Shown here: piece by piece, positions 10,015-57,161 of the stretch
Numbering within the stretch: the stretch's first letter is position 1
Layout of the letters: each line of letters begins with the position of its first letter
Source of the DNA: Polyangiaceae bacterium
Lineage (GTDB): Bacteria > Myxococcota_A > Polyangia > Polyangiales > Polyangiaceae
NCBI GenBank assembly: GCA_036490515.1
Contig: DASXDU010000039.1
Coordinates: 4,140-68,139 of the forward strand
Direction of reading: 5' to 3'
DNA length: 64,000 nucleotides
Program-made: the position numbers and the translations under genes
Notes under the pieces: model-generated
What the model was told of the DNA's origin: nothing
What the model saw: only the letters and a program-made list of their open reading frames with translations
Databases searched by the model: none

Positions 10015-10052
10015 CCCGCAGGCGTCGTCCGCGTTCGTGCGAACCCGCGCCG

Positions 10053-39806: not shown

Positions 39807-41255
39807 ATGCCCGGCGTGACCTCGCCCGATCCGTACGATCGTCAGCCGTACACGGAGCACGCCTACGCCGAGACGCATCCCGATCGGCTCGCGGTCGTGG
39901 CGCTCCTCGCGGGCTGGCGCCCGCCTGCCGTTCCCACCGCGCGCGTCCTCGAGCTCGGCTGCGGACCCGGAGGCAACCTCCTGCCGATGGCCGCGCAGCT
40001 TCCCGGCGCCTCCCTCGTGGGCGTCGATCTCTCCCGCGTCCAGATCGAGCACGCGCGCGCCGTCGCCGGGGAGACCGGCCTCACGAACGTGACGTTCCAC
40101 GAGGCGAGCTTCGACGATGCCGCCGCCGCTCCCGGGCCCTTCGACTTCGTCGTCGCCCACGGCGTCTGCTCCTGGGTCGCTCCCGCCGCGCGCCGTGCGC
40201 TCCTCCGCGCGGTTGCAGGCGCGCTGTCATCCGGCGGCATCGCGTACGTGAGCTTCAACGTCCTCCCTGGCTGGTACGACCGCATGGCGCCCCGGGCGTG
40301 GCTCCGGGCCCACCCCACGGACGACCCCCTTGCCTCCCTCGCGTGGCTCCGCGACCGCGTGTCCCCGGAGCTCTCCGAGTACCGTCGCCGGCTCGACGCC
40401 GTGGCTCGGCGCCTGGGCGAGACCGACCGGGCGTACGCGACGCACGAATACCTCGCGGACGAGCACCACCCGATGTTCGTGCGGGACCTGCTCGCCGAGG
40501 CCACGGACGCCGGGCTCACCTACCTTGGGGACGCGGTCCCCTCGGAGACGGCGCTCGAGATGCTCCCCGACGACGAAGCGCGCGGTCGCGCGCGCGCCTC
40601 GGATGCCCCCGGAGCTCAGGAGATCGTCGACTTCGTGCGCAACACCGCGTTCCGCCGGGCCCTCTTCGTCCGCACGGATGCAGCACGCGCGGCCGGCTGG
40701 CAGTGGTCGCCGGGCCTCTCCGCCGCCGCGATCGACGCCATGCGCGTCGCCAGCCGGCTCCGGCCTCACGGGAGCTCCGCCGGGCCGGACGCGCGCGGCG
40801 CCGAGCGCTTCGACGGACCCGAGTCCAGCGTGCAGGTCGACTCCGGCGTCGCCCGAAGGGCGCTCCACACGCTCGCCGACGCGGCCCCGCGCTCGCGGCC
40901 CTTCGGGGACCTCGCCGGCGGCACCGACGCAGCCGCTCTGCGCGCGGAGCTCTTCGATCTCTGGCTCGCGACCGGCGCCCTCGACTTCCACGTCCACGAG
41001 CCGCCCCTCGCCGGCCCGGACGTCCTTCGCCCCCTCGCGTGCCCGGTCGCCCGCTGGCACGCCGCACACGGCGGCCCGATCACCAACCGCTGGCACCAGG
41101 CCGTTCGCCTCGAGGACCCTCCGATGCGTGCCGTGCTCGCCCTGCTCGACGGAACGCGAACCCTCGCCGAGGTGGCGCGCGCCGCCGGGTGCACCGACGC
41201 GGTCGCGAGCGCGTGCGTCGAGGCGATCGCCCGCGCCGCGCTCCTCGCCGGCTGA
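39807..41255 (+). CDS. Class I SAM-dependent methyltransferase with C-terminal methyltransferase-regulatory domain
   Basis: 482-aa ORF. SAM motif I is RVLELGCGPGGNL. FDFVVAHGVCSWV. The long C-terminal domain resembles that of PKMT-like methyltransferases. Confidence 0.8.
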   Translation: MPGVTSPDPYDRQPYTEHAYAETHPDRLAVVALLAGWRPPAVPTARVLELGCGPGGNLLPMAAQLPGASLVGVDLSRVQIEHARAVAGETGLTNVTFHEASFDDAAAAPGPFDFVVAHGVCSWVAPAARRALLRAVAGALSSGGIAYVSFNVLPGWYDRMAPRAWLRAHPTDDPLASLAWLRDRVSPELSEYRRRLDAVARRLGETDRAYATHEYLADEHHPMFVRDLLAEATDAGLTYLGDAVPSETALEMLPDDEARGRARASDAPGAQEIVDFVRNTAFRRALFVRTDAARAAGWQWSPGLSAAAIDAMRVASRLRPHGSSAGPDARGAERFDGPESSVQVDSGVARRALHTLADAAPRSRPFGDLAGGTDAAALRAELFDLWLATGALDFHVHEPPLAGPDVLRPLACPVARWHAAHGGPITNRWHQAVRLEDPPMRAVLALLDGTRTLAEVARAAGCTDAVASACVEAIARAALLAG

Positions 41256-41258
41256 GCG

Positions 41259-41969
41259 CTACCAGGCCTCGCCGAAGGGCCGCGCCTCGACCTCGAAGGA
41301 CCACGCGGAGGGAGCCTGCTGCGTCAGGGCGAACGCGGTGGCGGCGACGTCGTCCGGCTTCACGAAGAACGAGTCCGGCTTGTCCTTCATGAACGAGCGC
41401 GTGCGCGGCAGATCGACCACGCCGTCGACGATGACGATCGCCACGTGGACGCCCGACGGCCAGAGGTGCCGCGCCATCGCCTCGGCGAGCGACCTCTGGG
41501 CGGCCTTCGCCGGCGCGAACGCCGTCGTCCGCGGCACCCCGCGGCGTGAGGCGGTCGCCCCCGTGAACACGATGCTGCCGGCCTTCCTCGCCTTCATCGC
41601 GCCGATGACCTGCTTGGAGACGAGGAAGCTGCCGAGGGCGTTGACGCGCCACGCGTTCTCGAAGTCCGCGGCCTTCACCTCCTCGATGTTGCCCCAGGTG
41701 CCCGAGCCCGCGTTGTAGAGCAGGACGTCGGCGTCCCCGAGGTCGGCGCGCACCGCGGCGAATGCCTTCTCCACCGACGCGGCATCCGCGACGTCGCACG
41801 CGTAGGCGCGCGCCCCGGGGAGCTGGCCGGCCAGCTCGGTCGAGAACTCCGTCGACCGCGCCAGGAGCGCCACGGCGTACCCCTCGGCCGCGAAGCGACG
41901 CGCGTACGCCGCCCCGATGCCCGGCCCGACCCCGACCACGACGCAGACCGGCTTCTTCGTCTCGCTCAT
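41259..41969 (-). CDS. Short-chain dehydrogenase/reductase (SDR)
   Basis: 236-aa ORF. Rossmann VVGVGPGIGAA, NAG, and the catalytic region F..AK of the Y/FxxxK type. Confidence 0.85.
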   Translation of the reverse strand: MSETKKPVCVVVGVGPGIGAAYARRFAAEGYAVALLARSTEFSTELAGQLPGARAYACDVADAASVEKAFAAVRADLGDADVLLYNAGSGTWGNIEEVKAADFENAWRVNALGSFLVSKQVIGAMKARKAGSIVFTGATASRRGVPRTTAFAPAKAAQRSLAEAMARHLWPSGVHVAIVIVDGVVDLPRTRSFMKDKPDSFFVKPDDVAATAFALTQQAPSAWSFEVEARPFGEAW

Positions 41970-42047
41970 GCAGAGCGTCTTAGCAACGAAACCGACGAGT
42001 CGCCGGCCGGCGCCCGCCCCGCTGCATGCACGCTGGCGCGATACGCG

Positions 42048-45000
42048 TCAGCGACGCGCAGCCTTCCCCTTGGGGACGTTCGCGCCCGCCAGGTCCACCT
42101 GCACCATCTTCGCTCGCCACGTCTCCGCCTGGTACAGGTTCGCCCAGCGCAGATCGGCCTCGGTGAGGTCCGCCCGCTCGAAGGTCGCTTGCATCAGGTT
42201 TGCCCGCGTGCACTTCGCGCGCTTGAGGCTCGCGCGGCGGAACGTCGCCTCCGTCGCGGTTGCGCGCGACAGGGTGGCCTCGTCGAGCTTCGCCCGCACG
42301 AAGAGCGCCCGGGCGAGCTGCGCCTTGGGGAGCTGCGCCCCCGTGAGGTCCGCGCCCTCCCAGACCGAACCCTCCGCCTGCACCTCGGCGAAGGACGCCC
42401 TGGCGAACCGCGCCCCGTCCGCGCGCAGATCGGTCATCGTGGCGCCGTCGAAGACGGCTCGCTCGCCGCGCGCGCCGTAGAACGTCGCGTCGTCGAGCGC
42501 GGCCCGGGCGAAGTTCGCTCGTGCGACGGACGCCTGCGTGAAGTTCGCCGACGCGAGCTTCGCCCCCGTGAGCCTGGCGTCTTCGAGGGACGCCCCGACG
42601 AAGCTCGCGCGGGTCGCGCGCGCGTCGAGCCACGTCGCCTCGGCGGCGTGGACTCCGTCCATCACCGCGCCTTCGAGGTTGGAGCGGTCGAACGCCGCGC
42701 GGGCGAGCCTGGCGCCCGTGAGGTCGGCGCCCGCGAGGTCCGCGTCGACGAAGCTGGCGCGATCGGCGCGCGCGCCCGCGAGGACCGCCCCCGCGAGGCG
42801 TGCCCGCGCGAGCACCGCGTCGCGCAAGTTCGCCTGGGCCAGGACGGCGCCCGTGAGATCGGCGCCCGTGAGGTCCGCCCCCTCGAGGTTCACGGCGGTG
42901 AGGTCCCGGCGCGCGAGCGACTTCCCCGCGGCGATCATGGCGAGCACCTGATCGCGCGACGGCGCGTCGGGCCGGCGGGGGAGCGGCCGCGCCTTCGCGG
43001 CGGCGCCAGCCGTGTCCTCGGGGAACGCCATCGCGCCCATGGGCAAGACGGTGCCTGCCGCGACGTGGGCGAGGAAGCGCTCGCGCTCCTCGTCGATCGT
43101 GCGCGCCGTGTCCCCCTGCTCGACGTCGACGAAGAGCGCAGCGAGGTCGGGCGAGTCGTCGTCCGGCGTCGCGTAGAGGCCGCGCCAGACCAGCACGACC
43201 TTCTTCGCGTCGGTGTCGAACCACGCCGTGTCGAGCCGGAGCACGATCTCGAAGAAGTCGCCGCCCACCTCCTCGGTCCGCTGCGCGAAGGCCCGCGGCC
43301 GCAGCCCGGGCAGGCGCCCCTCGAAGCCGCCGCCGCCCGGCCGGACCCCGACGATCGAGAAGCGCTCGTCCCCGCGCAGGTACGGCACCTGCTGCTCGGG
43401 AGGCGCCGCGTTGAAGTAGCTCCAGTCCCAGTCGGCGGGCAGGTACGGCCAGCGATCGCGCATCCAGGCCGCGTCGAACGTCCCCGTCTTGCCCCGGCGC
43501 GCCTTCCACCCCGGCGGCACCGGCCCGAAGCACGCGGGCGGCGGGCGGTCGTCGGGGCCCGTCACGAGCGACTCGGGTCGCTCGAGGTTCGGCGCGAGCA
43601 CGCCGGTGCGGTACCCCCGCCCGACGGGGTTCGCCTCGGAGAGCGGGCCGCCCATGGCGCGCTCCCAGCGGAGCGGCATCTTCGCGAACCGCGCCGGCTT
43701 GCCGTCGAAGGTGAACCCGCCCCAGCGGCGGTCGCCGAAGACGGCGACGCGCCGGCGGAGATCGCCGAGGCGAAGCTCGACGTTCGTCATCCCCGACGAC
43801 TCCTGCGCGGGGTACGCGTGCCCGACGAGGAGGACGTCCGCCGCGGGCTTGAAGACGGCGAAGTCCGACGCGTAGTGGAGGCCCGTCCCGTGCGGCGTCG
43901 TCTCGTCGGCCTCGTACGGGACGTCCCCGCTCGGCTGGTCCTGCTCGGGGGCGCGCGTCAGCGACCCGTCGTCGCCGAGCTGGAACGTCGCCTTGACGAT
44001 GAAGACGTTCGAGTACTCCGGGGGCTTCACCTGCCAGGGAAGGAGCCAGGCGTGGAGCCCGGTGTCGTTGACGATGGGGGGCTCGGCCGCCTCGCGCCGC
44101 GGCAGGCGCGGCTTCTTCTCGCTCTTCGGCGCGAAGATCATCGAGTGCTCGAGCTCGAGCTCGATGGCCGACGACTGCTGCAGCATGCTGGGCCCGTCGG
44201 GCGCGCCGCCCAGTGTGGGCGCGGGCATCCCGAGGATCGACGGCTCGAGCGCCGCAGGCGGCCGCCGGTCCCACACCGGGGCCGCGTCCTTCTTGGCGAG
44301 GGTCACCGAGACCCGCGCCGCGTCGAGGGACGCCGCCTGCGCAGCCTCGAGGACCATGCTCGCCCGCCACGTCAGCACGCAGCGGAGCATCTCGCCCTCG
44401 ATCCAGAGCGTATCGAGGACGAGCGGCAGCTCCTTCGAGGTGGACCCCACCTCGACGAGCGCGTGCGCGCGCTGCCCGGGCAGGCGCCACGTCATCTCGG
44501 CGATGGCGGGGTGCAGGCCGCTCATCAGGATCGACTCGTCTCCCTGGAGCGCGGGGAGCTGCTGATCGCGCGAGGCGGCGTTGAAGTACGCGAGGTCGAC
44601 GCCCGGGCCCACCAGCGGCACGGGCACCGCGAACGACGCCGGATCCGTCGGGCCGAGGCAGTCGCGACGCGAGGGCCACGCCGGCGGAACGGGACCGAGG
44701 CCGGCGGGCCGCTTCGGATCGTTCGGGTCGACGACGCTCGGCAGGCGCGTGTCGCCCGGATCGTCGCCCACGCCGACGGGGTTCATGCGCGAGGCGGCCC
44801 CGCCTGCCGCGAGCTCCCACCGGAGCGGGACGTAGGCGAACGGCTGCGGAGGCGTCGGTGTGCCGCCGCGATCGCGCTCGCGTGACCCGATGACGAGGAG
44901 CTTCTTGTCGAGCAGCATCGTCCCGTCGCGCGCCACGGCGAGGCGAACGGTCCGGTGGGTCACCCGCTCGCCCACGGGGGCGTACGCCGCGCCCGTGAAG

Positions 45001-45251
45001 AGCACGTCCGCGCGCGCCTTGGCGGGCGCGAAGTCGGACGCGACGCGCAGGCTGCGGCCGTCGTTCTGCTCGAAGTAGATGTCCCCGAAGAGCGGGTACG
45101 GGTCGACGAGCCGCGCGCGGTGCTCGGGCCGGATCTCGAGGGTCGCCTTGGCGACCACCGTGAGGCGCACCTGGCCGGGCGCGCACACCCCGTCGCGCCA
45201 GACGAGCGTACCGGCGGCGAGGGGAGCGAGCGCGAGGACCTCGATCGGCAT
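42048..45251 (-). CDS. Tandem DUF2169 domains fused to a long pentapeptide-repeat domain (T6SS-adaptor-type protein)
   Basis: 1067-aa ORF. Two copies of the DUF2169 pattern are present (VAKATLEI..DFAPAKARADVLFTGAAYAP..PLRWELAAGG..NPVGVG..YFNAA and VKATFQL..DFAVFKPAADVLLVGHAYP..VFGDRRW..MPLRWERAMGG..NPVGRG..WDWSYFNAAP..LDTAWFD). The C-terminal 330 aa are A(D/N)LxG-type pentapeptide repeats. Confidence 0.85.
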   Translation of the reverse strand: MPIEVLALAPLAAGTLVWRDGVCAPGQVRLTVVAKATLEIRPEHRARLVDPYPLFGDIYFEQNDGRSLRVASDFAPAKARADVLFTGAAYAPVGERVTHRTVRLAVARDGTMLLDKKLLVIGSRERDRGGTPTPPQPFAYVPLRWELAAGGAASRMNPVGVGDDPGDTRLPSVVDPNDPKRPAGLGPVPPAWPSRRDCLGPTDPASFAVPVPLVGPGVDLAYFNAASRDQQLPALQGDESILMSGLHPAIAEMTWRLPGQRAHALVEVGSTSKELPLVLDTLWIEGEMLRCVLTWRASMVLEAAQAASLDAARVSVTLAKKDAAPVWDRRPPAALEPSILGMPAPTLGGAPDGPSMLQQSSAIELELEHSMIFAPKSEKKPRLPRREAAEPPIVNDTGLHAWLLPWQVKPPEYSNVFIVKATFQLGDDGSLTRAPEQDQPSGDVPYEADETTPHGTGLHYASDFAVFKPAADVLLVGHAYPAQESSGMTNVELRLGDLRRRVAVFGDRRWGGFTFDGKPARFAKMPLRWERAMGGPLSEANPVGRGYRTGVLAPNLERPESLVTGPDDRPPPACFGPVPPGWKARRGKTGTFDAAWMRDRWPYLPADWDWSYFNAAPPEQQVPYLRGDERFSIVGVRPGGGGFEGRLPGLRPRAFAQRTEEVGGDFFEIVLRLDTAWFDTDAKKVVLVWRGLYATPDDDSPDLAALFVDVEQGDTARTIDEERERFLAHVAAGTVLPMGAMAFPEDTAGAAAKARPLPRRPDAPSRDQVLAMIAAGKSLARRDLTAVNLEGADLTGADLTGAVLAQANLRDAVLARARLAGAVLAGARADRASFVDADLAGADLTGARLARAAFDRSNLEGAVMDGVHAAEATWLDARATRASFVGASLEDARLTGAKLASANFTQASVARANFARAALDDATFYGARGERAVFDGATMTDLRADGARFARASFAEVQAEGSVWEGADLTGAQLPKAQLARALFVRAKLDEATLSRATATEATFRRASLKRAKCTRANLMQATFERADLTEADLRWANLYQAETWRAKMVQVDLAGANVPKGKAARR

Positions 45252-45299
45252 GGGCCGCCGAGGCTACCAAACATCGGCCCGGTGGTATGCTGCCCGGCG

Positions 45300-45830
45300 A
45301 TGGCATCCGCCGCCAAGGTCCGCCGCCCGCACACGCTCGCCGACGCCGCACGCTCGCCTGCCTCGCCTGCCTCGCCTGCCTCGCCTGCCTCGTCGGGCTC
45401 GCCGCGAGCCGCGCAAGCCCCGGGCGCTCCGCCCGTCCTTCGCACGCCGCGGGGTGCCTCGGTGGAAGCCGACGGCGAGCGCCTCGTCGTGCGCGACACG
45501 CGGGGCGCGGTGGTGGTCGTCTACGACGCCGAGCGCGGCACCGCCGAGATCCGCGTCCCCGAGGGGGACCTCACGCTCGCCGCGCCCAAGGGCAAGATCT
45601 CGCTCCGCGCGCAGGAGGTCGAGTGCGAGGCGGGTCGCATCGAGCTCCGCGCCGACCGCATCTTCGAGCGCGCCCGCGACGTGTACCGCGAGGTCGAGGG
45701 CCTGCTCCAGACGCGGGCCGAGCGCGTGCGCACCCTCGCGCACGGCGCGTACCACGTCTTCGCGAAGCGCGTGAACGTCGCCGCCGAGGAAGACGCGTCC
45801 GTCGACGGCAAGCGCGTGCTCCTCGGGTAG
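45300..45830 (+). CDS. DUF3540-like protein
   Basis: Distal 176 codons of track ORF 44955..45830(+), ATG 45300, 48 bp from the divergent DUF2169 start. The beta-repeat body (GDLTLAAPKGKISLRAQEVECEAGRIELRADRI) and the ending ...EDASVDGKRVLLG resemble DUF3540 as I recall it. Genomic context supports the call. Confidence 0.5.
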   Translation: MASAAKVRRPHTLADAARSPASPASPASPASSGSPRAAQAPGAPPVLRTPRGASVEADGERLVVRDTRGAVVVVYDAERGTAEIRVPEGDLTLAAPKGKISLRAQEVECEAGRIELRADRIFERARDVYREVEGLLQTRAERVRTLAHGAYHVFAKRVNVAAEEDASVDGKRVLLG

Positions 45831-45854
45831 AGCCCTCGCCGGGTCGTTCGCGTC

Positions 45855-47060
45855 CTACTTGGCGAGCCGCATCACGGCGTTCGCGGTGGTGTCGGACCAG
45901 TAGACGTAGTGCGCGTCCACCGCGATGCCCCCCGGAGTGTCGCCGAGCGTCGCGAGCGTCGTGGCGGGGCCGCCGCCGATGGGGATGGCCACGATGGACC
46001 CGCCCTGAAGCGCGCTCTGGTTGCTCGGCAGGTAGCGCGCCGTCGCGAGGTATACGCGGGTCGCGTCGACCGTGATCGACGGGGCTGCCGACCATGCGCT
46101 GACGGGCGTCACCGTGCCGATGGTCGTCGGCGTCCCGCCGGACAGCGCGACCTGCGCGACGGTGCCATCCATCAAGGAGTAGTACGCATTCGTGCAGTCC
46201 GCCGTGATGGAAGCGAGCTGCCCGTCGTTCCCGCTGGCGAGCGTCACGACGGAGCCGTTCGACACCGTGCCGACGCCCCAGGAGCTCGCGTACGGTCCGT
46301 ACCCGAAGACGACGACGTCTCCACGCGCGAACATCGGGGCAAAGCCGGCGAATGGAACGGAGTCTCCGGTGTCCAGGGAGACCGCGAACCCCGGGCCGTT
46401 CTGGACCGTCGCGGTGTAGAGGAAGTGGCGCGTCGCGGCGATGTCCACGAATTGCCCGACGGCGCTCGCGACCGTGGTGTACGCGCCGCCGCAACCGGTC
46501 TTGGCGCACGCGACGACGACCCCGCCCGTTCCCCCTCCGGTCATCGTGAAGATGTCCGTGTCGTTCATCGCGACGCGATACTGGCCGATGGCGTCGAGCG
46601 CGACGACGGGGCCACCGGAGAGCGGGACGACGGAGATCGGGCCGGGGTTGAAGGAGGCGACGTAGAGGCTCGTGGCGTCGATGGCGAGGCCGGCGGGGCT
46701 CTCGACGTTCGCGAACGTCTCCGGCGCGCCGCCACCGGCACCGGTCGAGGCAGGGGGCGGCGGAGGGCAGGCAGGAGGCGAGGGCGGACCCGTCTCGGGC
46801 GCACCCTCGTCGGGCAGACTCGCCTCGGCCACGCTCGTGTCCGGAGCGCCCGCCTCGAAGACGCCGGAGGAAGAGCCGGACGAGCCGGACGAACTCGAGG
46901 AGCCCGAGGAGCCGGTGACGCCCGATGAGCTCCCGCCAGGCCTCCCCGAAGAGCTGCCGGTCTCTCCGGCGCCCCCGCCGTAGAGCGGAGTCCTCCCGCC
47001 GCACGCACCCGCGGCGGCCACGATGACGAGAGAAAGAGCGAGGACCGGGGAGCCGCGCAT
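45855..47060 (-). CDS. Beta-propeller-type lipoprotein with Ser/Gly linker
   Basis: 401-aa ORF with lipobox VAAAGAC and a (Ser-Gly)n linker. Repeated blades end in motifs such as DATSLYVAS, TRHFLYTAT, CTNAYYSL, ATRVYLAT, DAHYVYWSD. Confidence 0.7.
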   Translation of the reverse strand: MRGSPVLALSLVIVAAAGACGGRTPLYGGGAGETGSSSGRPGGSSSGVTGSSGSSSSSGSSGSSSGVFEAGAPDTSVAEASLPDEGAPETGPPSPPACPPPPPASTGAGGGAPETFANVESPAGLAIDATSLYVASFNPGPISVVPLSGGPVVALDAIGQYRVAMNDTDIFTMTGGGTGGVVVACAKTGCGGAYTTVASAVGQFVDIAATRHFLYTATVQNGPGFAVSLDTGDSVPFAGFAPMFARGDVVVFGYGPYASSWGVGTVSNGSVVTLASGNDGQLASITADCTNAYYSLMDGTVAQVALSGGTPTTIGTVTPVSAWSAAPSITVDATRVYLATARYLPSNQSALQGGSIVAIPIGGGPATTLATLGDTPGGIAVDAHYVYWSDTTANAVMRLAK

Positions 47061-47141
47061 GGTCTCCTTCGAGAAGCGTACGCCCTCGACCCCGGCGCTG
47101 CTACCGCTGTTCGATCGTACGCCCCGAGGCGACCGCGACGC

Positions 47142-47546
47142 CTAGGGAGCGACCTGTACCAGCGCCTGCGACGGTGCGCCCTGGAGGCCGTTCGCGTTCA
47201 TCTGGTTCTGCGTCGTCGTCCCGGTGACGGTGACGGCCGGCTTGCCCTGGAACTTCACCTTGGAGCTGCCCTTCGACCACTTGACCGGCCCCATGATCCC
47301 GCCGGAGCGCCAGCCGCCGCCGACCCCCGCCTCGTCGCCCTGGCTCATCGGGATCTGCGACCCGAGGTTGGCCGCCGGCATGTTCATGATCATCACCTTG
47401 GCGGCGACCTCCACCGCCATCTCGCACATGCCCGTGTTCGGGTAGGGAACCGGGGCCTCGCCGGCGGGAGGCGTGGGCGTGAAGCAGATGTCCGCCGGCG
47501 CGAGGCACATGCCCGTCTGGATCGTGGTGGCGGCAAGTCCGGGCAT
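47142..47546 (-). CDS. DUF4150 PAAR-like protein, stand-alone (no effector domain)
   Basis: 134-aa ORF. PADICFTP..APVPYPN, SQGDEAGVGGG, GSSKVKFQGKPAV and TTQNQMN match the DUF4150 pattern. AAGGAG/GAGGAG lies in the 27-nt gap upstream. Confidence 0.8.
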   Translation of the reverse strand: MPGLAATTIQTGMCLAPADICFTPTPPAGEAPVPYPNTGMCEMAVEVAAKVMIMNMPAANLGSQIPMSQGDEAGVGGGWRSGGIMGPVKWSKGSSKVKFQGKPAVTVTGTTTQNQMNANGLQGAPSQALVQVAP

Positions 47547-47573
47547 CGGTCGTCTCCTCGCTCCTTCGTCCTC

Positions 47574-49121
47574 TCAGGCGTCGACGCGGAAATCTTCGGC
47601 CTTCGCGCGCTCGGGGTCCGTCTTGCGCGCGGAGCCCATTCGCGCCCCTCGTGTCTCGGCGCCGTCGAGCTTCGCGCGGTGCAGGTTCGCGTTCGAGAGA
47701 TCGGCGTCCGCGAGCTTCGCCGTCGACAGGTCCGCGTGCGACAGGTCCGCGTTCGTGAGGTCCGCTCCCCGGAGGTCGGCCCCCCGCAGGTCCACGCCGA
47801 CGAGGCGCGCTCCCCGCAGCTTCGCTCCACGGAGATCGGCCTTTCGCGCGTTCGCGCGCGCGAACGACGCGCCCTGCAGCGAGGCCCCCGACAGCGATGC
47901 CCGCTCGAGCGTCGCGCCGTCGAAGCGCGCGAAGTCGAGCATCACCGACGCCATCTTCGCGTCGGTGAGGTCGGCCCCCTCCGCACGGAGCTGCCGCGCC
48001 GTGCCGCCCGCGAGCTTCATCCCGGGGAGCTTCGCCCGCCCGATCGAGGCGCGCGTGAGATCGCACCCGCGCAGGTCCGCGTCGGCGCCCTTCGCGTCCT
48101 CGAGCAGGCACTGCTCGAACGCCGTCCCCGCAGCCTGCACCTTCGCGAAGTCGATCCCGCTGAAGTCCGCGAGGTAGAACTTCGCGCGCCGCAGGTCGGC
48201 CCCGGCCAGCGCGCGCGATCGAATGCGTGCCCCGCGGGCGTCGGCCCCCTCGAGCGTCGCGCTCGAGAGGTCCACGTCGAGCATCCGCGTCGTCCGCATC
48301 GTGGCGCCCGACAGGTCGACCCGCGCGAGGTTCGCGCCCGACAGATCCACCCGCTCCCACGTCGAGCCGCGAAGGGGGGACCCGCGAAGATCCGCGTTCG
48401 CGAGGTCCGCGTCGGCGATCGTCTTTCCGGCCATGGCGCCGCCGAGGACGGCCTTGGCGAGCGTCGGGGGAGCGGCAGGCGGGGGGGCGGGAGCGGGGAC
48501 TCCGCGCTTCGCGGGCGCGGGGGCGAGCGCGGGCGCGAGCGCGGGCGCGGGCGCGGGCGCGGGCGCGGAGAGTGACGCCGGGGGCGCCGGGCGCCTCGTC
48601 GGGAAGACGTGTTTCACCGCGGGAGGCGGCTCGGTGGGCGCGGGCGGCGAAGCCGCCGTGGGCGGCGGGGGCGGCGCCGGAGCGGGAACCGCGATCTCCG
48701 TCTTGGCGACGAGCGCATCGAGCGCGGGCCGCTTCGCGGGCTTTTCCTTGCGTGGAGCCGTGCCCCGGCCCGCCAGCGGCAGCGTGCCGGCGAGCCCCGC
48801 GCCCTCCATCTTCGCGCGCAGCGCCGCCGCGGCCTTCTTCGCCTCCTCGGGCGTGATCTGCTGCGTCTTCAGGAGCGCAGGGTCGAGGGGCTTCCTCGCC
48901 TGCGGGGCCGGGGCCTTCCCCGGGACCGACGCCGGGTTCATCACCTGCGTCCTCAGCATCGCCGGGTCGAACTTCTTCGGAGGCGGCTTCGCCCCGGACG
49001 GCGGCCCTGCCTCGGCCCCTGCCTTCGGCTTCGGCGCGAGGGGCAGCGTCCCCGTCAGCTGCTTCAGCTTGTCGCTCGACGGGCGCCTCTTCGGCGGGGG
49101 TTTCTTCGCGTCGTCCGTCAC
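47574..49121 (-). CDS. Pentapeptide-repeat protein with Lys/Pro/Ala-rich disordered N-terminal half
   Basis: 515-aa ORF. The N-terminal 230 aa are low complexity, including an (Ala-Pro)n run. The C-terminal 280 aa are A(D/N)L(R/S)G pentapeptide repeats. Confidence 0.85.
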   Translation of the reverse strand: MTDDAKKPPPKRRPSSDKLKQLTGTLPLAPKPKAGAEAGPPSGAKPPPKKFDPAMLRTQVMNPASVPGKAPAPQARKPLDPALLKTQQITPEEAKKAAAALRAKMEGAGLAGTLPLAGRGTAPRKEKPAKRPALDALVAKTEIAVPAPAPPPPPTAASPPAPTEPPPAVKHVFPTRRPAPPASLSAPAPAPAPALAPALAPAPAKRGVPAPAPPPAAPPTLAKAVLGGAMAGKTIADADLANADLRGSPLRGSTWERVDLSGANLARVDLSGATMRTTRMLDVDLSSATLEGADARGARIRSRALAGADLRRAKFYLADFSGIDFAKVQAAGTAFEQCLLEDAKGADADLRGCDLTRASIGRAKLPGMKLAGGTARQLRAEGADLTDAKMASVMLDFARFDGATLERASLSGASLQGASFARANARKADLRGAKLRGARLVGVDLRGADLRGADLTNADLSHADLSTAKLADADLSNANLHRAKLDGAETRGARMGSARKTDPERAKAEDFRVDA

Positions 49122-49142
49122 GCGACGAGCCTACCAGGTCCG

Positions 49143-50792
49143 TCAGAAGCCGTAGGCGAGGCCCGCCTCCGGACCGAAGGACGGGACGAAGCCGTTCGAC
49201 CCGAAGGACCCGTTGGCGCGCACCGTCAGCGTCCCGCCGAAGCGCTCGGAGAACGCCACGTGGATGCCCCCGCCGATCATCAGGAAGAAGGGCCCGTTCA
49301 TCTGCCAGAGCTGGACGGTCCCGTTCTGCGCGTTGACCTGCCCGCCGTTGAGCGTCACGCCGGAGTCGGTGTGGGTGTCGAACGACGCCAGGCCCAGGCC
49401 CGCGTAGAGCATCGGCGCGACCGTCTTGGTGATCGCCTGGTCGCCGAAGAGGTACGAGAAGCGCGCGTCGACGTAGAGGCGACCGTTCGCGGCGCTCCAT
49501 GCTCTGCCGTCGGTGTAGGCGGCCTGCCCGGGATACTTGAACGTCGTCAGGCCGAGGCGCGCCCCGAGCAGCATGTTGGCGCTGAGCGCGTAGTCGAAGG
49601 ACAGCATCAGCCGGATGTCGCCGCGGTCGACCCCGCCGTTGGAGCTACCCGCGCTGCCGGGGCTGAGGGCGGCGTTCTGGTTGGGGTTCGAGCGCGTCGG
49701 AAAGTCCGTGCCGTCCTGGTTGGTGCAGTAGACGTTGGCGCTGTTCGCCGGGAGCGCGGTCGTCGGGTCGAGGTGGCAGAGGTCCTTGCCGGCGGGCATC
49801 GACTGGAACTCGAGAGCGCCCGCGATGCCGATCCACACCTTGCGGTACGGCCCCTTCGGCCCCTTGTCCGAGTCGTCGTCGCTCTTGTCGCCGTTGTCGT
49901 CGCCCTCGTCGCCCGCGGCTTCGCCGCTCTTCGAGCACCCCGGGAAGTCGGGGGGGCAGTCGCTCGACTCGTGGCAGGACTTCGGCGCGGCCTTGCCCGG
50001 CAGGTGCGGCGCGTCGCCGGAGATGTCGTCCTTGATGGGCACCGTGTACGGGTGGCGCGCGTCGCCGTTGCTCGCGACCGCCTCCTTCGAGTCGTCGAAC
50101 CCCTGGACGTAGTACCGCATCGTCCCGCTGTGGACGTCGCCGCAGGGGATGAGGCCACCCCACCCGTCGCCCATCTTCTTCAGGTCGATGCGCTTCCAGG
50201 ACGTCTGCCCTGCGCCCTTGTACTTCAGGACGACGCGTACGAGGTTGTCCCCGCCCCCCTCGACGTAGACGGGCAGCGGCGTGTCGGTCTTCTGCTCGCC
50301 AGCCGGCGTGTGATTGAAGTCGCCGGCGGGCTGCTCGGCGTTGTCCCCGCCGCCGCCGCCACCCCCCCCGCCTCCACCCGCTGCCCCGCCGCCGCCGCCG
50401 GCCCCGTTCGCCGCAGCCTGGAACGCCTTGCGAATGTCGGGCGCGTCGTAGGCCGGGTTGAGCGTGATGTCCCCCTGGAGCTGCACGGCCGCGGCCCAGT
50501 TGCGCCCGGCCTGGTCCTTGTCGCCCTTGCGGAACTGCATCGTCCCGAGGTCGCGGAACAGCGCGGCGCGGATCGAGGCGCTGCACCGGTTCGTCCCGCA
50601 GGCCTTCATGGCCTTCTCGATGCGCGTGGCGCCCGTGCCGTAGTTCATCGCCAGGTAGTCGCCCTCGGCCTTCTTCAGGGCAGCCTTGGCGGCTCCCTCC
50701 GTACGTGGGCTCGCCAGGACGGGGCGGGCGAACGTGGTGGCCAGGAGCGCGAGAAGGAGGGTGAGGAGAGCAGCGCGCACGGGCCGCTTCAT
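49143..50792 (-). CDS. Secreted protein: TPR-like N-domain, poly-Gly tract, beta-sandwich-like domain and C-terminal OM beta-barrel
   Basis: Distal 549 codons of track ORF 49143..53417(-), ATG 50792 (MKRPVRAALLTLLLALLATTFARPVLA). C-terminal alternating strands end ...EAGLAYGF (terminal Phe, the OMP signature). Confidence 0.7.
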   Translation of the reverse strand: MKRPVRAALLTLLLALLATTFARPVLASPRTEGAAKAALKKAEGDYLAMNYGTGATRIEKAMKACGTNRCSASIRAALFRDLGTMQFRKGDKDQAGRNWAAAVQLQGDITLNPAYDAPDIRKAFQAAANGAGGGGGAAGGGGGGGGGGGDNAEQPAGDFNHTPAGEQKTDTPLPVYVEGGGDNLVRVVLKYKGAGQTSWKRIDLKKMGDGWGGLIPCGDVHSGTMRYYVQGFDDSKEAVASNGDARHPYTVPIKDDISGDAPHLPGKAAPKSCHESSDCPPDFPGCSKSGEAAGDEGDDNGDKSDDDSDKGPKGPYRKVWIGIAGALEFQSMPAGKDLCHLDPTTALPANSANVYCTNQDGTDFPTRSNPNQNAALSPGSAGSSNGGVDRGDIRLMLSFDYALSANMLLGARLGLTTFKYPGQAAYTDGRAWSAANGRLYVDARFSYLFGDQAITKTVAPMLYAGLGLASFDTHTDSGVTLNGGQVNAQNGTVQLWQMNGPFFLMIGGGIHVAFSERFGGTLTVRANGSFGSNGFVPSFGPEAGLAYGF

Positions 50793-50888
50793 ACACCGGT
50801 CCCACGCCGGCGGGATCAACCTCTTCACGGGGCGGATTTTTCCAAGTTTCTCCGCGGAGTCGGAGGTTTGTAGAATCCCGCACGACCC

Positions 50889-51386
50889 ATGACCTCCGGC
50901 CTCCCTGCCTCGCCCGGGCGCGACGACGCCACCGGCCCCGCCCTCACGCTCGCCCCGCGGTACATCGGGCTCACGCTGGGGCTCGTCGTCGCCGCCTTCC
51001 TCGCGCTGGTCGCCTACTGGGCGATCTGGTTCTTCGTCAACCGCGCCTGGCTGGCGAGCCTCGACACGCCCTCGTACTACGTCTTCGAGAACGCGTTTCC
51101 GGCGGCCGACGCCTGGCTCGCCCTCGCGTGCGCCCTCGGCGGCTGGGCGCTCTACCGGCGCCGCTCCAGCGCGCTCTTCTGGCTGCTCGCCGGCGGGAGC
51201 GCGAGCATCTACCTCGGCCTGATGGACGTGCTCTTCGACCTGGAGAACCGCGTCTACCTCGCGCCGCACGGGGAGTGGGGTTCGGTCGCGACCGAGATCG
51301 CCATCAACGTCTACTCGCTGGGCGTCGGGGCGTGGGCTCTCTCCTTCGGGTGGCGCAACCGGCGGTGGTTTCTCACGAGACCGTGA
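50889..51386 (+). CDS. Integral membrane protein (4 TM)
   Basis: 165-aa ORF with four hydrophobic helices. No family recognised. Confidence 0.6.
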   Translation: MTSGLPASPGRDDATGPALTLAPRYIGLTLGLVVAAFLALVAYWAIWFFVNRAWLASLDTPSYYVFENAFPAADAWLALACALGGWALYRRRSSALFWLLAGGSASIYLGLMDVLFDLENRVYLAPHGEWGSVATEIAINVYSLGVGAWALSFGWRNRRWFLTRP

Positions 51387-51536
51387 GCCCTCAGCCCGAG
51401 GGGGGCGCAGCCCACGCGGTGAGGACGCGCGGTTGCGGCGCCCCTCCATCAGGCATCTCGGGGCATCTGCCTCCACACGGCGAATCGCGCGCGGGATCGC
51501 CCATGGTCTGATTCGTGCGGTGGGCCCTCCGCATCG

Positions 51537-53345
51537 ATGCAAGCGCCGGCCGTCGATTCGTCGCGTCCCCGTGAGATTGGCAAGTACCACCTCGTCGCCG
51601 AGCTGGCGCGCGGAGGCATGGGGATCGTGCACCTCGCCTCGGCGCAAGGGCCGGGAGGGTTCAGCAAGCTGCTCGTCGTGAAGGAGCTCAAGCCGGAGCT
51701 CGCGCACGACGACAGCTACGTGTCGATGTTCCTCGACGAGGCTCGCCTCGCCGCGCGTCTCGGCCATCCGAACATCGTGCAGACCATCGAGGTCGGCTCG
51801 GAGGGGAGCCGCCACTACATGGTCATGGAGTTCCTCGACGGCCGCTCGCTGCACCGGGTCGCCCGGCGCTTCCGCGAGCAGGGCGGCCTCCCCGTCGGCG
51901 CCCACCTGCGCGTCGTCGCCGAGATGCTCCTCGGGCTGCACCATGCCCACGAGCTCGCCGACTTCGACGGCCGGCCGCTCGGGATCGTCCACCGCGACGT
52001 GAGCCCGCTCAACGTGTTCGTCACCTTCGACGGCCAGACCAAGGTCCTCGACTTCGGCATCGCCAAGTCGGCGGATTCGTCGCTCGAGACCAAGACGGGC
52101 GTCCTCAAGGGCCGCGTCGCGTACATGGCGCCCGAGCAGGCCTGGGGGCAGGGCGTCGACCGCCGGGCCGACGTCTACTCCGCCGGCGTCATGATCTGGG
52201 AGGCCGCGGCGGGGCGCCGCCTCTGGCCCGGCATGAACGACGTGGAGATCCTCGCGCGCCTGCTGCGCGAGGGGCCGCCGCGCCTCTGCAGCGTGAACCC
52301 CGACGCCCCCGAAGACCTCGAGGCCATCTGCGCGCGCGCGATGGAGAAGCGACCGGAGGACCGCTACGGCAGCGCCATCGAGCTGCTCGAGGACCTCGAC
52401 GCGCACATCGCCTCGCGTGACGACGCGATGTCCATCCGCGAGGTCGGCGCGATGGTGGGCCGCGCGTTCGCCGAGGAGCGCCGGCGCATGAGCGCCCTCA
52501 TCGAGGAGACGCTCCTGCGCGTCCGGAGCGGTCCGCGCTCGGGCGTGATGCCGACGTTCGAGGTGCACGTACGCGGGACCCCGAGCGGCGCCTCGGGCGT
52601 CCGCGACGAAGCAAGCCAGGTCACCGGGCAGCTCACGGGCCCGACGTCGAGCCAGAGCCGGCTGTCGGCGTCGCGCATGGGGATGACGCCGCCGCTCGAG
52701 TCCTTCCTCAGCGCTCCGCCGTCGCCCACCGCGGCGAGCCTCACGCCCGCGTACGCAACCCCCGAGCCTCCGTGGTGGGCCTCCCGCCGCGCGGCCTTCG
52801 GCGCGGCAGGCGCGGGCGCGCTCCTCCTGGCGGGCGTCGTGGCGCTCCTCGCGAGCGGGCGCGATCCCGAGCCCTCGACCTCGACGCGCGCGGCGGTGGC
52901 CGCCGCCGCGATGCTGCCCGAGCGCGACACGCCGGAGCTCGTCGACGTCGTCGTCCGCGTCACCCCGTCGAACGCGCTGGCCACCATCGACGGCGCGTCG
53001 ATCCCGCTCCTTCCCTTCCACGCGCGCTACGCGAAGGACTCGCTCGTCCACCACGTCACGGCCACGGCCGACGGCTACGAGCCACGCACCGTGGACGTCA
53101 CGTTCGTCAACGACACCTCCGTGGACATCAGCCTCGAGAAGCGCGCCGCGGCGCCCACCATCCGGTACCTCGCCGCGCCGTCCGGACCTTCCCACGCGAG
53201 CAAGCACGCGTCGTCCTCGTCCTCGCCGACCGCGCCGCCCAGCGATCCTTCGCCCGCGGCCCCGTCGCGCGTCGAGGTCGCCCCCGGCGGCGGCCACGCA
53301 CCGCTGCGCCCCATCTCCACCAGCAACCCGTACGGGAACCAATGA
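51537..53345 (+). CDS. Ser/Thr protein kinase with TM segment and PEGA-like C-terminal domain
   Basis: 602-aa ORF. ARGGMGIV, LVVKEL, HRDVSPLN, VLDFG, YMAPEQ. TM segment AAFGAAGAGALLLAGVVALL. C-terminal VVVRVTPSNALATIDG. Confidence 0.92.
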   Translation: MQAPAVDSSRPREIGKYHLVAELARGGMGIVHLASAQGPGGFSKLLVVKELKPELAHDDSYVSMFLDEARLAARLGHPNIVQTIEVGSEGSRHYMVMEFLDGRSLHRVARRFREQGGLPVGAHLRVVAEMLLGLHHAHELADFDGRPLGIVHRDVSPLNVFVTFDGQTKVLDFGIAKSADSSLETKTGVLKGRVAYMAPEQAWGQGVDRRADVYSAGVMIWEAAAGRRLWPGMNDVEILARLLREGPPRLCSVNPDAPEDLEAICARAMEKRPEDRYGSAIELLEDLDAHIASRDDAMSIREVGAMVGRAFAEERRRMSALIEETLLRVRSGPRSGVMPTFEVHVRGTPSGASGVRDEASQVTGQLTGPTSSQSRLSASRMGMTPPLESFLSAPPSPTAASLTPAYATPEPPWWASRRAAFGAAGAGALLLAGVVALLASGRDPEPSTSTRAAVAAAAMLPERDTPELVDVVVRVTPSNALATIDGASIPLLPFHARYAKDSLVHHVTATADGYEPRTVDVTFVNDTSVDISLEKRAAAPTIRYLAAPSGPSHASKHASSSSSPTAPPSDPSPAAPSRVEVAPGGGHAPLRPISTSNPYGNQ

Positions 53346-57039: not shown

Positions 57040-57161
<122 letters not shown>

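What the first reader, a model, noticed from the sequence alone, without database searches (positions are those of the whole stretch)
42048..50792. Orphan DUF4150 / DUF2169 / DUF3540 / pentapeptide module with no VgrG or T6SS core, wired to envelope proteins
Six adjacent genes make up the module:
- 49143..50792(-): secreted TPR-like/OM-barrel protein, followed by a 21-nt gap.
- 47574..49121(-): pentapeptide-repeat protein, followed by a 27-nt gap containing AAGGAG.
- 47142..47546(-): DUF4150 PAAR-like protein, followed by an 81-nt gap.
- 45855..47060(-): beta-propeller lipoprotein.
- 45300..45830(+): DUF3540-like protein, convergent with the lipoprotein gene.
- 42048..45251(-): DUF2169-DUF2169-pentapeptide protein, divergent from the DUF3540-like gene with a 48-bp spacer.

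DUF4150 plus DUF2169 (often with DUF3540 and pentapeptide proteins) is the accessory set normally found just downstream of vgrG in T6SS auxiliary clusters. There DUF2169 acts as the adaptor that loads a DUF4150 PAAR-like effector onto VgrG, as with Agrobacterium Tde2 and Atu3641.

This window has no vgrG, hcp or tssA-M gene, and no recognisable toxin/immunity pair. Instead the spike-tip parts are co-directional, and apparently operonic, with an OM barrel and a lipoprotein. Either it is a remote satellite of a T6SS locus, or the spike-tip parts have been repurposed in a different envelope machine.
Basis: partly seen in the sequence, partly recalled or inferred. Interest (0 to 1): 0.7.

Follow-up and report, generated by a model that had tools for sequence, protein, structure and literature searches.

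The report
Detached T6SS spike-tip chaperone module
This is a Polyangiaceae version of a known helper gene set (Tvp/TagAB-B-C-D) that prepares the sharp tip of the type VI secretion "spear"; here it sits away from the spear genes, and the two envelope-protein genes beside it are neighbours by accident, not partners in a new machine.

Summary
No VgrG, Hcp or Tss gene lies in the 64-kb window or in 6.5 kb beyond its right end.

Four of the genes match the published "Class III Tvp" (synteny type C) T6SS accessory set: TvpAB, TvpB, TvpC and Paar1. The same rearranged core (PPR, PAAR-like, inverted DUF3540, DUF2169-PPR) recurs in other Polyangiaceae metagenome contigs. There it lies 2-2.5 kb from a vgrG (L034, L038) or directly beside tssM/tssL/tssJ/fha (L036).

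The OM-barrel gene is an ancestral Polyangiaceae gene that keeps its place next to secG-pgk-gap in relatives lacking the module. The beta-propeller lipoprotein gene is present only in this strain. So "remote T6SS satellite" is supported and "repurposed envelope machine" is not.

Three features define a lineage variant: a tandem DUF2169 duplication, an inverted TvpC that has lost its OB fold, and unusually short linked VgrGs in relatives.

I could not test whether this genome carries a T6SS.

The parts
42048..45251 (-). g6: TvpAB-like protein, 1067 aa, with two tandem DUF2169 domains and a C-terminal pentapeptide-repeat solenoid
   Evidence: Pfam DUF2169 x2 at 6.6e-142 and Pentapeptide at 7e-43. 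PDB sequence hit to 8vth, a DUF2169 structure, at 1.3e-19. AF2 model pLDDT 84.6 with Foldseek top hit 8vth at E 1e-19 and TM 0.79. About 40 orthologous clusters, all from Polyangiaceae.
44277..45251 (-). First (extra, more divergent) DUF2169 domain, aa 1-325
   Evidence: 36% identical to the second domain, E 5e-38. pLDDT about 90. Absent from the single-domain relative in L036.
43062..44075 (-). Second DUF2169 domain, aa 393-730, in the canonical position next to the PPR
   Evidence: Best Pfam stretch is 416-690. Scores higher than domain 1 against canonical TvpAB proteins. 56% identical to the single-domain L036 protein.
42066..42929 (-). Pentapeptide-repeat beta-solenoid of g6, aa 775-1062
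   Evidence: Pfam Pentapeptide families. AF2 shows a regular solenoid with pLDDT about 95. Foldseek hits to HetL, Qnr and MfpA.
45300..45830 (+). g5: short TvpC-like DUF3540 protein, 176 aa, on the opposite strand; lacks the OB-fold half of canonical TvpC
   Evidence: Pfam DUF3540 at 8.5e-13, profile positions 121-199 only. Alignment with canonical TvpC shows it begins just after the OB segment. 68-84% identical in L005, L032, L034, L036 and L038, the best conserved module protein. Absent in L033.
45353..45403 (+). 9-nt tandem repeat encoding (PAS)n in the N-terminal tail of g5; its length varies between strains
   Evidence: TRF reports 5.7 copies. L002 carries +27 nt and L001 and L119 carry +36 nt at window position 45352, always in frame.
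47142..47546 (-). g3: PAAR-like DUF4150 ('PIPY') spike-tip protein, 134 aa, domain only with no toxin extension
   Evidence: Pfam Tox-PAAR-like at 3.6e-32. PVPY motif at aa 32-35, matching the P(I/V)P(Y/F) motif of PMC11883445. PDB hit to the N-terminus of 8qjc, a T6SS Rhs protein.
47574..49121 (-). g2: TvpB-like stand-alone pentapeptide-repeat protein, 515 aa; PPR at aa ~228-512 after a Pro/Ala/Lys-rich disordered N-terminus
   Evidence: Pfam Pentapeptide at 1.3e-47. Only aa 225-513 are conserved in relatives, at 56-71%.
45855..47060 (-). g4: probable beta-propeller lipoprotein, a strain-specific insertion between the PAAR-like and DUF3540 genes; not part of the conserved module
   Evidence: No Pfam family. 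Homologues carry source names DUF5050, YvrE and LDL-receptor class B. Absent from L005, L032, L033, L034, L035, L036 and L038. The 39% homologue P0205 lies in an unrelated locus.
49143..50792 (-). g1: secreted helical-domain, beta-sandwich and OM beta-barrel protein; an ancestral neighbour, not part of the conserved module
   Evidence: AF2 model and Foldseek hits. At least 269 Polyangiaceae homologues. Present without the module in L029, L030 and the P0013 locus.

Best explanation
Genes g6, g5, g3 and g2 form a Polyangiaceae-lineage variant of the Class III Tvp T6SS accessory system (also called TagAB/TagB/TagC/TagD, or DUF2169 synteny type C).

By homology with the Serratia system, the likely mechanism is as follows. 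The PAAR-like PIPY cone (g3) docks on the end of a trimeric DUF3540 prism (g5). The DUF2169 domains of g6 shield the cone's hydrophobic faces. The PPR solenoids of g6 and g2 wrap the assembly. This pre-complex hands the tip to a VgrG encoded elsewhere in the genome, so that a T6SS can assemble and fire.

The set was moved, probably once, from a vgrG/T6SS-linked position to a site downstream of an unrelated outer-membrane protein gene (g1). In this strain it later received a beta-propeller lipoprotein gene (g4) as an insertion.

Shown here: domain identities, conservation, gene order in relatives, linkage to vgrG or tss genes in relatives, and the independence of g1 and g4.

Inferred: the protein contacts, the hand-over to a remote VgrG, and the presence of a T6SS in this genome.
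For: Domains: Pfam; DUF2169 structure 8vth; PVPY motif.

The published Class III definition (DUF2169-PPR TvpAB, PPR TvpB, DUF3540 TvpC, DUF4150 Paar1) and the pre-complex model are in PMC13373197. The DUF2169/PIPY chaperone model is in PMC11883445.

The rearranged core is conserved in window, L005, L032, L034, L036 and L038.
- L034: a VgrG (Phage_GPD 3e-64; TIGR03361 7.5e-94) lies 2.1 kb upstream of the module.
- L038: a VgrG lies 2.5 kb upstream.
- L036: the module abuts IcmF/TssM, DotU/TssL, SciN/TssJ, SLT and Fha.

Outside Polyangiaceae, in 8 canonical class III loci where the sequence upstream of tvpAB was held and scanned (7 in the window plus L008), a VgrG-type ORF was found upstream of tvpAB in all 8 (7 with Phage_GPD and OB domains, directly adjacent in 6 and one ORF away in L022; in L008 the ORF is cut by the contig end and shows only the OB domain).

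g6 identity falls from the g1-linked loci (60-68%) to the vgrG/T6SS-linked loci (51-56%), which fits a derived relocation.

All module ORFs are intact, have coding GC3, and are 46-84% identical to the other six core-bearing loci (L005, L032, L033, L034, L036, L038; 38-43% to the divergent L035).

T6SS is reported as common in Polyangiaceae and Polyangiales MAGs and genomes (PMC11821767, PMC10196010).
Against: - No VgrG or T6SS gene was found in 70.5 kb around the module. The rest of the 379-kb contig and of the genome could not be read, so a cognate T6SS is assumed, not shown.
- g5 lacks the OB fold of characterised TvpC, and L033 has lost g5 altogether. The Serratia two-step mechanism may therefore not transfer unchanged.
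- The 21-nt g1-g2 spacing is kept in four loci, so co-transcription with g1 is likely. A functional tie within this sub-clade cannot be formally excluded.
- No effector or immunity candidate is present.
Confidence: 0.75

Rival explanations
1. Repurposed spike tip. The PAAR-like, DUF2169, DUF3540 and PPR proteins no longer serve a T6SS. Instead they work with the co-transcribed OM-barrel protein g1 (and the lipoprotein g4) in a different envelope machine.
For: No vgrG or tss gene in 70.5 kb. g1, g2, g3 and g4 are co-directional with 21-81-nt gaps and Shine-Dalgarno motifs. g1-module adjacency recurs in L005, L032 and L033. By matching contig lengths, it also recurs in at least four further clusters.
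Against: g1 is found without the module at the same syntenic site in L030, and also in L029 and the P0013 locus. The module is found without g1 but with vgrG or tss genes in L034, L038 and L036. g4 is unique to this strain and its homologue is unlinked. All g1-linked loci form one clade by g6 and g1 identity, so the linkage counts as a single event. The module proteins have no signal peptides, whereas g1 and g4 are Sec-exported, so the two groups would sit in different compartments.
Confidence: 0.07
2. Split spike. In this lineage the OB-less DUF3540 protein is not a transient VgrG mimic. It is the permanent beta-prism of the spike, stacking on an unusually short VgrG (gp27 plus OB only) and carrying the PAAR-like tip. 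The double-DUF2169 and PPR proteins act as its chaperones.
For: g5 and its orthologues start exactly after the OB segment of canonical TvpC. The VgrGs linked to the module in L034 and L038 are 488 aa and stop 37 aa after the OB domain, whereas canonical class III VgrGs are 730-912 aa. g5 is the most conserved module protein. About 17 of the best 150 DUF3540 representatives are short forms.
Against: No VgrG is available for the window genome. L033 has lost g5 but keeps the rest of the module. There is no structural or interaction evidence. blastp of g5 against VgrG C-termini is not significant. Only two module-linked short VgrGs were seen.
Confidence: 0.15
3. Non-functional relic. The set is a stranded remnant of a lost T6SS auxiliary cluster and is drifting toward decay.
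For: No vgrG, effector or immunity gene is adjacent. g5 is truncated relative to canonical TvpC and has been lost in L033. A foreign gene (g4) is inserted within the module.
Against: All four ORFs are intact with strong coding GC3. They are conserved at 46-84% amino-acid identity across six other loci (38-43% in the divergent L035) with no frameshifts. Both DUF2169 domains and the PPR fold confidently. The PVPY motif is retained. Repeat variation in g5 stays in frame.
Confidence: 0.03

Closest known systems
Class III Tvp system of Serratia marcescens Db10 (TvpAB, TvpB, TvpC, Paar1; Monlezun, Earl and Coulthurst, EMBO J 2026, PMC13373197). Equivalent to Burkholderia T6SS-5 TagAB/TagB/TagC/TagD and to DUF2169 'synteny type C' of Sachar et al. 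2025 (PMC11883445).
   Same: The same four protein families are present: a DUF2169-PPR fusion, a stand-alone PPR protein, a DUF3540 protein, and a domain-only DUF4150/PIPY PAAR-like protein with the P(I/V)P(Y/F) motif. In relatives the set is linked to vgrG or the T6SS core.
   Different: - No adjacent vgrG in the window.
- Gene order is PPR, PAAR, inverted DUF3540, DUF2169-PPR rather than vgrG-tvpAB-tvpB-tvpC-paar.
- The DUF2169 domain is tandemly duplicated.
- DUF3540 lacks the OB-fold half.
- TvpB carries a ~225-aa disordered N-terminal extension.
- No effector or immunity gene is nearby.
   Same: The DUF2169 chaperone pairs with a DUF4150 PAAR-like domain.
   Different: The Agrobacterium set has a single-domain DUF2169, no PPR and no DUF3540. 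Its PAAR-like domain is fused to a DNase toxin with an immunity gene and sits directly after vgrG2. None of that applies here.
Canonical class III loci in Gemmatimonadota, Planctomycetota, Verrucomicrobiota and Pseudomonadota MAGs
   Same: The PAAR-like proteins are 40-54% identical to g3, and the same four families are present.
   Different: These loci have a single DUF2169, a full-length TvpC with an OB fold, all genes on one strand, and a 730-912-aa VgrG directly upstream.
Small outer-membrane beta-barrels (NspA, Ail, OmpA/OprF N-domain, OmpW), relevant to g1 only
   Same: The C-terminal barrel of the g1 model matches these structures (Foldseek E 6e-6 to 5e-4, target TM 0.5-0.67). g1 also has a signal peptide and a C-terminal aromatic residue.
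   Different: g1 has extra N-terminal helical and beta-sandwich domains and matches no Pfam family. Its family appears confined to Polyangiaceae.

Membership tests
Class III Tvp system / DUF2169 synteny type C | TvpAB: a DUF2169 domain fused to a C-terminal pentapeptide-repeat domain | tested here: met
   Pfam DUF2169 at 6.6e-142 plus Pentapeptide at 7e-43. Foldseek hit to 8vth at E 1e-19. The domain is present twice, which the published class does not describe.
Class III Tvp system / DUF2169 synteny type C | DUF4150 (PIPY) PAAR-like protein with a P(I/V)P(Y/F) motif | tested here: met
   PF13665 at 3.6e-32. PVPY at aa 32-35.
Class III Tvp system / DUF2169 synteny type C | Independent pentapeptide-repeat protein (TvpB) | tested here: met
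   g2 matches Pfam Pentapeptide at 1.3e-47 and is conserved next to the PAAR-like gene in all seven Polyangiaceae loci.
Class III Tvp system / DUF2169 synteny type C | DUF3540 protein (TvpC) present | tested here: met
   PF12059 scores 49.1 bits against a cutoff of 27.9.
Class III Tvp system / DUF2169 synteny type C | TvpC is a VgrG mimic with an OB fold plus a beta-prism | tested here: not met
   Only profile positions 121-199 match. Alignment shows that g5 and its orthologues begin after the OB segment of canonical TvpC. The fold itself was not modelled.
Class III Tvp system / DUF2169 synteny type C | Encoded immediately downstream of a vgrG, in the order vgrG-tvpAB-tvpB-tvpC-paar | tested here: not met
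   No VgrG in the window by Pfam or tblastn, and the gene order is rearranged. Relatives L034 and L038 have a vgrG 2-2.5 kb away, and L036 abuts tssM/L/J.
Class III Tvp system / DUF2169 synteny type C | A T6SS core and at least one VgrG in the same genome (genome-level co-occurrence, Sachar 2025) | not testable with these tools
   Only about 70 kb of a 379-kb metagenome contig was readable. The metagenome scan with a Polyangiaceae VgrG returned nothing from the source sample.
Class III Tvp system / DUF2169 synteny type C | The proteins form a TvpAB-TvpB-TvpC-Paar pre-complex and are required for T6SS firing | not testable with these tools
   This needs multimer modelling or experiments.
Outer-membrane beta-barrel protein (g1) | Sec signal peptide, a C-terminal antiparallel beta-barrel, and a terminal aromatic residue | tested here: met
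   N-terminus MKRPVRAALLTLLLALLATTFARPVLA|SP and C-terminal ...AYGF. The AF2 barrel spans aa 319-548 with pLDDT above 90. Foldseek matches NspA, OprF, Ail and OmpA.
Bacterial lipoprotein (g4) | Signal peptide ending in a lipobox [LVI][ASTVI][GAS]C | tested here: inconclusive
   The sequence ...LVIVAAAGAC|GG has the Cys and small residues at -1 and -2, but Ala rather than L/V/I at -3. No dedicated predictor was available.

The most novel reading that the evidence does not exclude
Polyangiaceae may use a split T6SS spike. A truncated VgrG of about 488 aa (gp27-like hub plus OB fold, no beta-prism) would be completed in trans by the OB-less DUF3540 protein (g5), which supplies the prism that carries the PIPY tip. 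The duplicated DUF2169 chaperone and two PPR solenoids would hold this detachable tip module. Under this reading the window's 'orphan' cluster encodes the distal half of the spike itself, not just transient chaperones. That would explain why it can be encoded far from vgrG and why g5 is its most conserved gene.
Probability: 0.15. Interest if true: 0.6.

Novelty: new variant of a known kind. Interest (0 to 1): 0.3.

Why it matters
The finding mainly adds detail to a known system. It shows that the recently defined Class III Tvp accessory system exists in Myxococcota (Polyangiaceae) in a rearranged form, with a duplicated DUF2169 chaperone domain and a TvpC reduced to its prism half. It also shows that the set can be encoded away from vgrG.

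That qualifies the statement that DUF2169 genes are strictly vgrG-linked, and it provides natural variants for testing the two-step spike-assembly model. One such test is whether the OB fold of TvpC is dispensable.

It also removes a tempting but wrong inference, that PAAR-like parts have been recruited to an outer-membrane machine. As a by-product it flags a large, unannotated Polyangiaceae outer-membrane protein family.

Tried and rejected
- Genome-contig scan with the PAAR-like protein. No close species relative turned up (best 50-54% identity). Only one 5.7-kb MAG contig (L005, labelled Solirubrobacteraceae, probably mis-binned) shares the window's arrangement.
- Metagenome-contig scan with the L034 VgrG. 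The aim was to find a VgrG on the window's own contig or sample. Nothing came from sample 3300036790, so the presence of a T6SS in this genome stays open. The scan did yield L038.
- Extending the contig. Only 6.5 kb beyond the right end could be read, with no T6SS families.
- Promoter and terminator scan of 41000-51600. It found 0 promoter-like sites and 5 terminator-like sites against 3.2 expected. This is uninformative for operon structure in this GC-rich genome.
- PDB sequence searches for g1 and g5. Only linker noise came back.
- NCBIfam. Only generic pentapeptide models matched, all below their cutoffs. There was no hit for g1, g3, g4 or g5.
- blastp of g5 and of the L022/L028 473/506-aa ORFs against VgrG C-terminal prisms. 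Not significant, so the split-VgrG idea has no sequence support.
- Population pN/pS from co-occurring strains. There were too few differences: 1-4 SNPs plus in-frame repeat indels.
- Rejected: a mobile-island origin. There is no integrase or tRNA, and GC content matches the flanks.
- Rejected: SDR 41259-41969 as part of the module. It is present only in the window and L033 and belongs to the flanking S51-SDR-methyltransferase backbone.

Full report
OBSERVATION

The window is 72% GC, so raw ORF lists are noisy. I therefore used codon-position GC to call genes.

The junctions read exactly as described:
- 21 nt between g1 (49143-50792, -) and g2 (47574-49121, -).
- 27 nt with GAAGGAG before g3 (47142-47546, -).
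- 81 nt with GAAGGAG before g4 (45855-47060, -).
- g4 and g5 (45300-45830, +) are convergent.
- g5 and g6 (42048-45251, -) are divergent, with 48 nt between start codons.

Pfam confirms the domain calls:
- g3: Tox-PAAR-like/DUF4150, 3.6e-32.
- g6: two DUF2169 stretches (6.6e-142) plus pentapeptide repeats.
- g5: DUF3540, 8.5e-13, C-terminal part of the profile only.
- g2: pentapeptide repeats, 1.3e-47.

g1 and g4 match no Pfam family. Pfam scans of about 45 ORFs across the whole window found no VgrG, Hcp or Tss family. The flanks are housekeeping genes: gap-pgk-tpiA-secG, a methyltransferase, an SDR, and Ser/Thr kinases. tblastn with seven VgrGs from other loci found nothing in the window (best E 0.3).

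SOURCE

The sequence is a JGI metagenome contig (3300036790, Ga0376660_0000052, 379 kb), or a near-identical strain of it. Homologues of g1, g4 and g6 that carry names are all labelled Polyangiaceae bacterium MAGs.

WHAT THE MODULE IS

The literature held here identifies the four-family set precisely.
- Sachar et al. 2025 (PMC11883445) show that DUF2169 chaperones DUF4150 'PIPY' domains onto VgrG. They define synteny type C as DUF2169-PPR plus DUF3540 plus DUF4150 with vgrG.
- Monlezun, Earl and Coulthurst 2026 (PMC13373197) name these proteins TvpAB, TvpB, TvpC and Paar1 ('Class III'). [quoted passage not shown] VgrG1 then replaces TvpC.

The window's proteins fit this set.
- g3 has PVPY at aa 32-35, which is the PIPY motif.
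- g6 hits the DUF2169 crystal structure 8vth by sequence (1.3e-19).
- The g6 AF2 model also hits 8vth by fold (pLDDT 84.6; Foldseek E 1e-19, TM 0.79).

RELATIVES

A scan of species-representative genomes with g3 returned 24 loci.

Twenty or so come from Gemmatimonadota, Planctomycetota, Verrucomicrobiota and Pseudomonadota. They have the canonical one-strand order tvpAB-tvpB-tvpC-paar. In eight loci where the sequence upstream of tvpAB was held and scanned, a VgrG-type ORF lay upstream of tvpAB in every one: seven have Phage_GPD and OB domains (directly adjacent in six, 730-912 aa; one ORF away and 544 aa in L022), and the eighth (L008) is cut by the contig end and shows only the OB domain.

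Only L005 shares the window's order. Protein searches and neighbourhood look-ups then showed the following.

(i) g6-like proteins with two DUF2169 domains form about 40 clusters at 35-92% identity, all from Polyangiaceae.

(ii) The core order PPR, PAAR-like, DUF3540 (opposite strand), DUF2169(-DUF2169)-PPR is conserved in window, L005, L032, L034, L036 and L038. L033 lacks DUF3540.

(iii) Three relatives link the core to T6SS genes.
- In L034 a bona fide VgrG (Phage_GPD 3e-64; TIGR03361 7.5e-94) lies 2.1 kb upstream of the module.
- In L038 a VgrG 71% identical to it lies 2.5 kb upstream.
- In L036, a single-DUF2169 version of the module directly abuts tssM/icmF, tssL/dotU, tssJ/sciN, an SLT gene and fha.

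(iv) In the divergent L035 (38%), the PPR, full-length DUF3540 and PAAR genes sit on one strand, divergent from the double-DUF2169 gene. This looks like an intermediate arrangement.

The module is therefore a T6SS accessory set. g6 identity is highest among the g1-linked loci (60-68%) and lower to the vgrG- or tss-linked loci (51-56%). This indicates that the window's position is a derived relocation.

THE ENVELOPE GENES

g1. The AF2 model (pLDDT 86) shows these parts:
- a signal peptide;
- a helical TPR-like domain;
- a beta-sandwich;
- a C-terminal barrel matching NspA, OprF-N, Ail, OmpA and OmpW.

But g1 belongs to a family of at least 269 Polyangiaceae proteins. In L029 (56% identity), L030 (51%) and the P0013 locus (60%), g1 has no Tvp gene nearby. 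In L030 it lies directly beside secG-pgk-gap, which is the window's own synteny. In the P0013 locus the g1 ... S51 ... methyltransferase backbone is present without the module.

So g1 is the ancestral resident, and the module was inserted downstream of it in one sub-clade (window, L005, L032, L033). Judging by matching contig lengths, several more clusters belong to that sub-clade.

g4. Its homologues carry beta-propeller-type names: DUF5050, YvrE and LDL-receptor class B. g4 occurs at this position only in the window strain.
- L034 and L036 have the PAAR-like and DUF3540 genes about 12 nt apart.
- L005 has a 580-bp gap there.
- L032 has other small ORFs there.
- L033 has nothing there.

A 39% homologue of g4 sits in an unrelated sigma-factor neighbourhood. 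The module proteins have no signal peptides, while g1 and g4 do. The 'wired to envelope proteins' reading is therefore not supported. Co-transcription with g1 is still likely in this clade, given the 21-nt spacing.

VARIANT FEATURES

(a) Duplicated DUF2169. The two domains of g6 are 36% identical to each other (E 5e-38), and both fold confidently. Domain 2 is the canonical one and domain 1 is the added, more divergent copy. Neither of the two Tvp/DUF2169 papers held here mentions such an architecture; a term search of PMC13373197 for 'two DUF2169' found nothing. A plausible but untested role is to cover a second hydrophobic face of the PIPY cone.

(b) Short, inverted g5. It is on the opposite strand and begins exactly after the OB-fold segment of canonical TvpC. 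Its start, M[GSA]A[SAR]AK[KR]V, is conserved. In the window the tail carries a (PAS)n repeat whose length varies in frame between co-occurring strains. g5 is the best conserved module protein at 68-84%. An exhaustive HMMER search shows that about 17 of the top 150 DUF3540 representative clusters are similarly short.

(c) Short linked VgrGs. The VgrGs linked to the module in L034 and L038 are only 488 aa and stop 37 aa after the OB domain. The complementary losses suggest a split spike, with a VgrG hub and OB fold plus a DUF3540 prism. I rate this reading at 0.15. It cannot be tested for the window genome, and L033's loss of g5 argues against it being obligatory.

MECHANISM (best estimate)

The cytoplasmic g3 cone is capped by the DUF2169 domains of g6 and docked on a g5 trimer. 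The assembly is wrapped by the PPR solenoids of g6 and g2 and then delivered to a VgrG encoded elsewhere, allowing T6SS assembly. No effector or immunity pair is encoded here. The set may simply sharpen or activate a particular VgrG spike, as Burkholderia TagD and Serratia Paar1 do, or its cargo may be VgrG-linked elsewhere.

The steps from 'docked' onward are inferred from homology. T6SS is reported as common in Polyangiaceae MAGs (PMC11821767, PMC10196010), but I could not verify one in this genome. The metagenome scan returned nothing from the source sample, and only 6.5 kb beyond the window could be read.

VERDICT

It is a new lineage variant of a known, recently characterised accessory system. 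Interest is modest and mainly for T6SS specialists.

Noticed in passing
window 49143-50792 (-); homologues P0001-P0120: g1 defines a large family (at least 269 clusters) of Polyangiaceae proteins with no Pfam or NCBIfam model. Each has a signal peptide, a helical TPR-like domain, a beta-sandwich, a Cys-rich acidic linker with six invariant Cys, and an OmpA/NspA-like barrel. It usually sits near secG-pgk-gap.
   Followed up: partly
window 45353-45403 (+): A 9-nt tandem repeat (CTCGCCTGC x5.7) encodes (PAS)n in the N-terminal tail of the DUF3540 protein. Co-occurring strains carry +27 nt (L002) or +36 nt (L001, L119) at position 45352, always in frame.
   Followed up: yes
L034:4265-5731, L037:621-2075, L038:599-2047, L039, L040, L052: A family of unusually short VgrGs (about 480-490 aa) that stop just after the gp5-type OB fold, with no beta-prism. 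Two of them (L034, L038) are linked to the double-DUF2169 module, whose DUF3540 protein lacks the OB fold.
   Followed up: partly
L022:2598-5779 and L028:2498-5683 (Castellaniella / Alcaligenaceae): In these canonical class III loci the VgrG is only 544 aa. It is followed by a separate 473/506-aa ORF with no Pfam family before tvpAB. This may be another split VgrG, but blastp against VgrG C-termini was not significant.
   Followed up: partly
L033 (ENA k141_1606273) 9285-12992: An orthologous module has lost the DUF3540 gene entirely. The PAAR-like gene is followed after 45 nt by the double-DUF2169 gene, on the same strand.
   Followed up: partly
window 47574-49121 (-), aa 1-225: The TvpB-like protein carries a ~225-aa Pro/Ala/Lys-rich, low-complexity N-terminal extension. 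It is not conserved in relatives, whose proteins are 319-495 aa. Its function is unknown.
   Followed up: no
L035:4715-6571 (-) and L034:13332-15065 (+): ORFs of 618 and 577 aa with no Pfam family lie immediately downstream of the PAAR-like gene (L035) or of the DUF2169 gene (L034). They are possible cargo effectors of the relatives' modules. No counterpart exists in the window.
   Followed up: no
window 57040-57057: An 18-nt indel separates the window from contig Ga0376660_0000052. The window therefore comes from a near-identical co-assembled strain, or from another contig such as the 926-kb contig listed for P0197.
   Followed up: no
L005 (DATCEM010000385.1): This contig is labelled 'Solirubrobacteraceae bacterium' (Actinomycetota), yet it encodes the Polyangiaceae-type g1 and module at 50-78% identity. 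It is probably a mis-binned contig.
   Followed up: no
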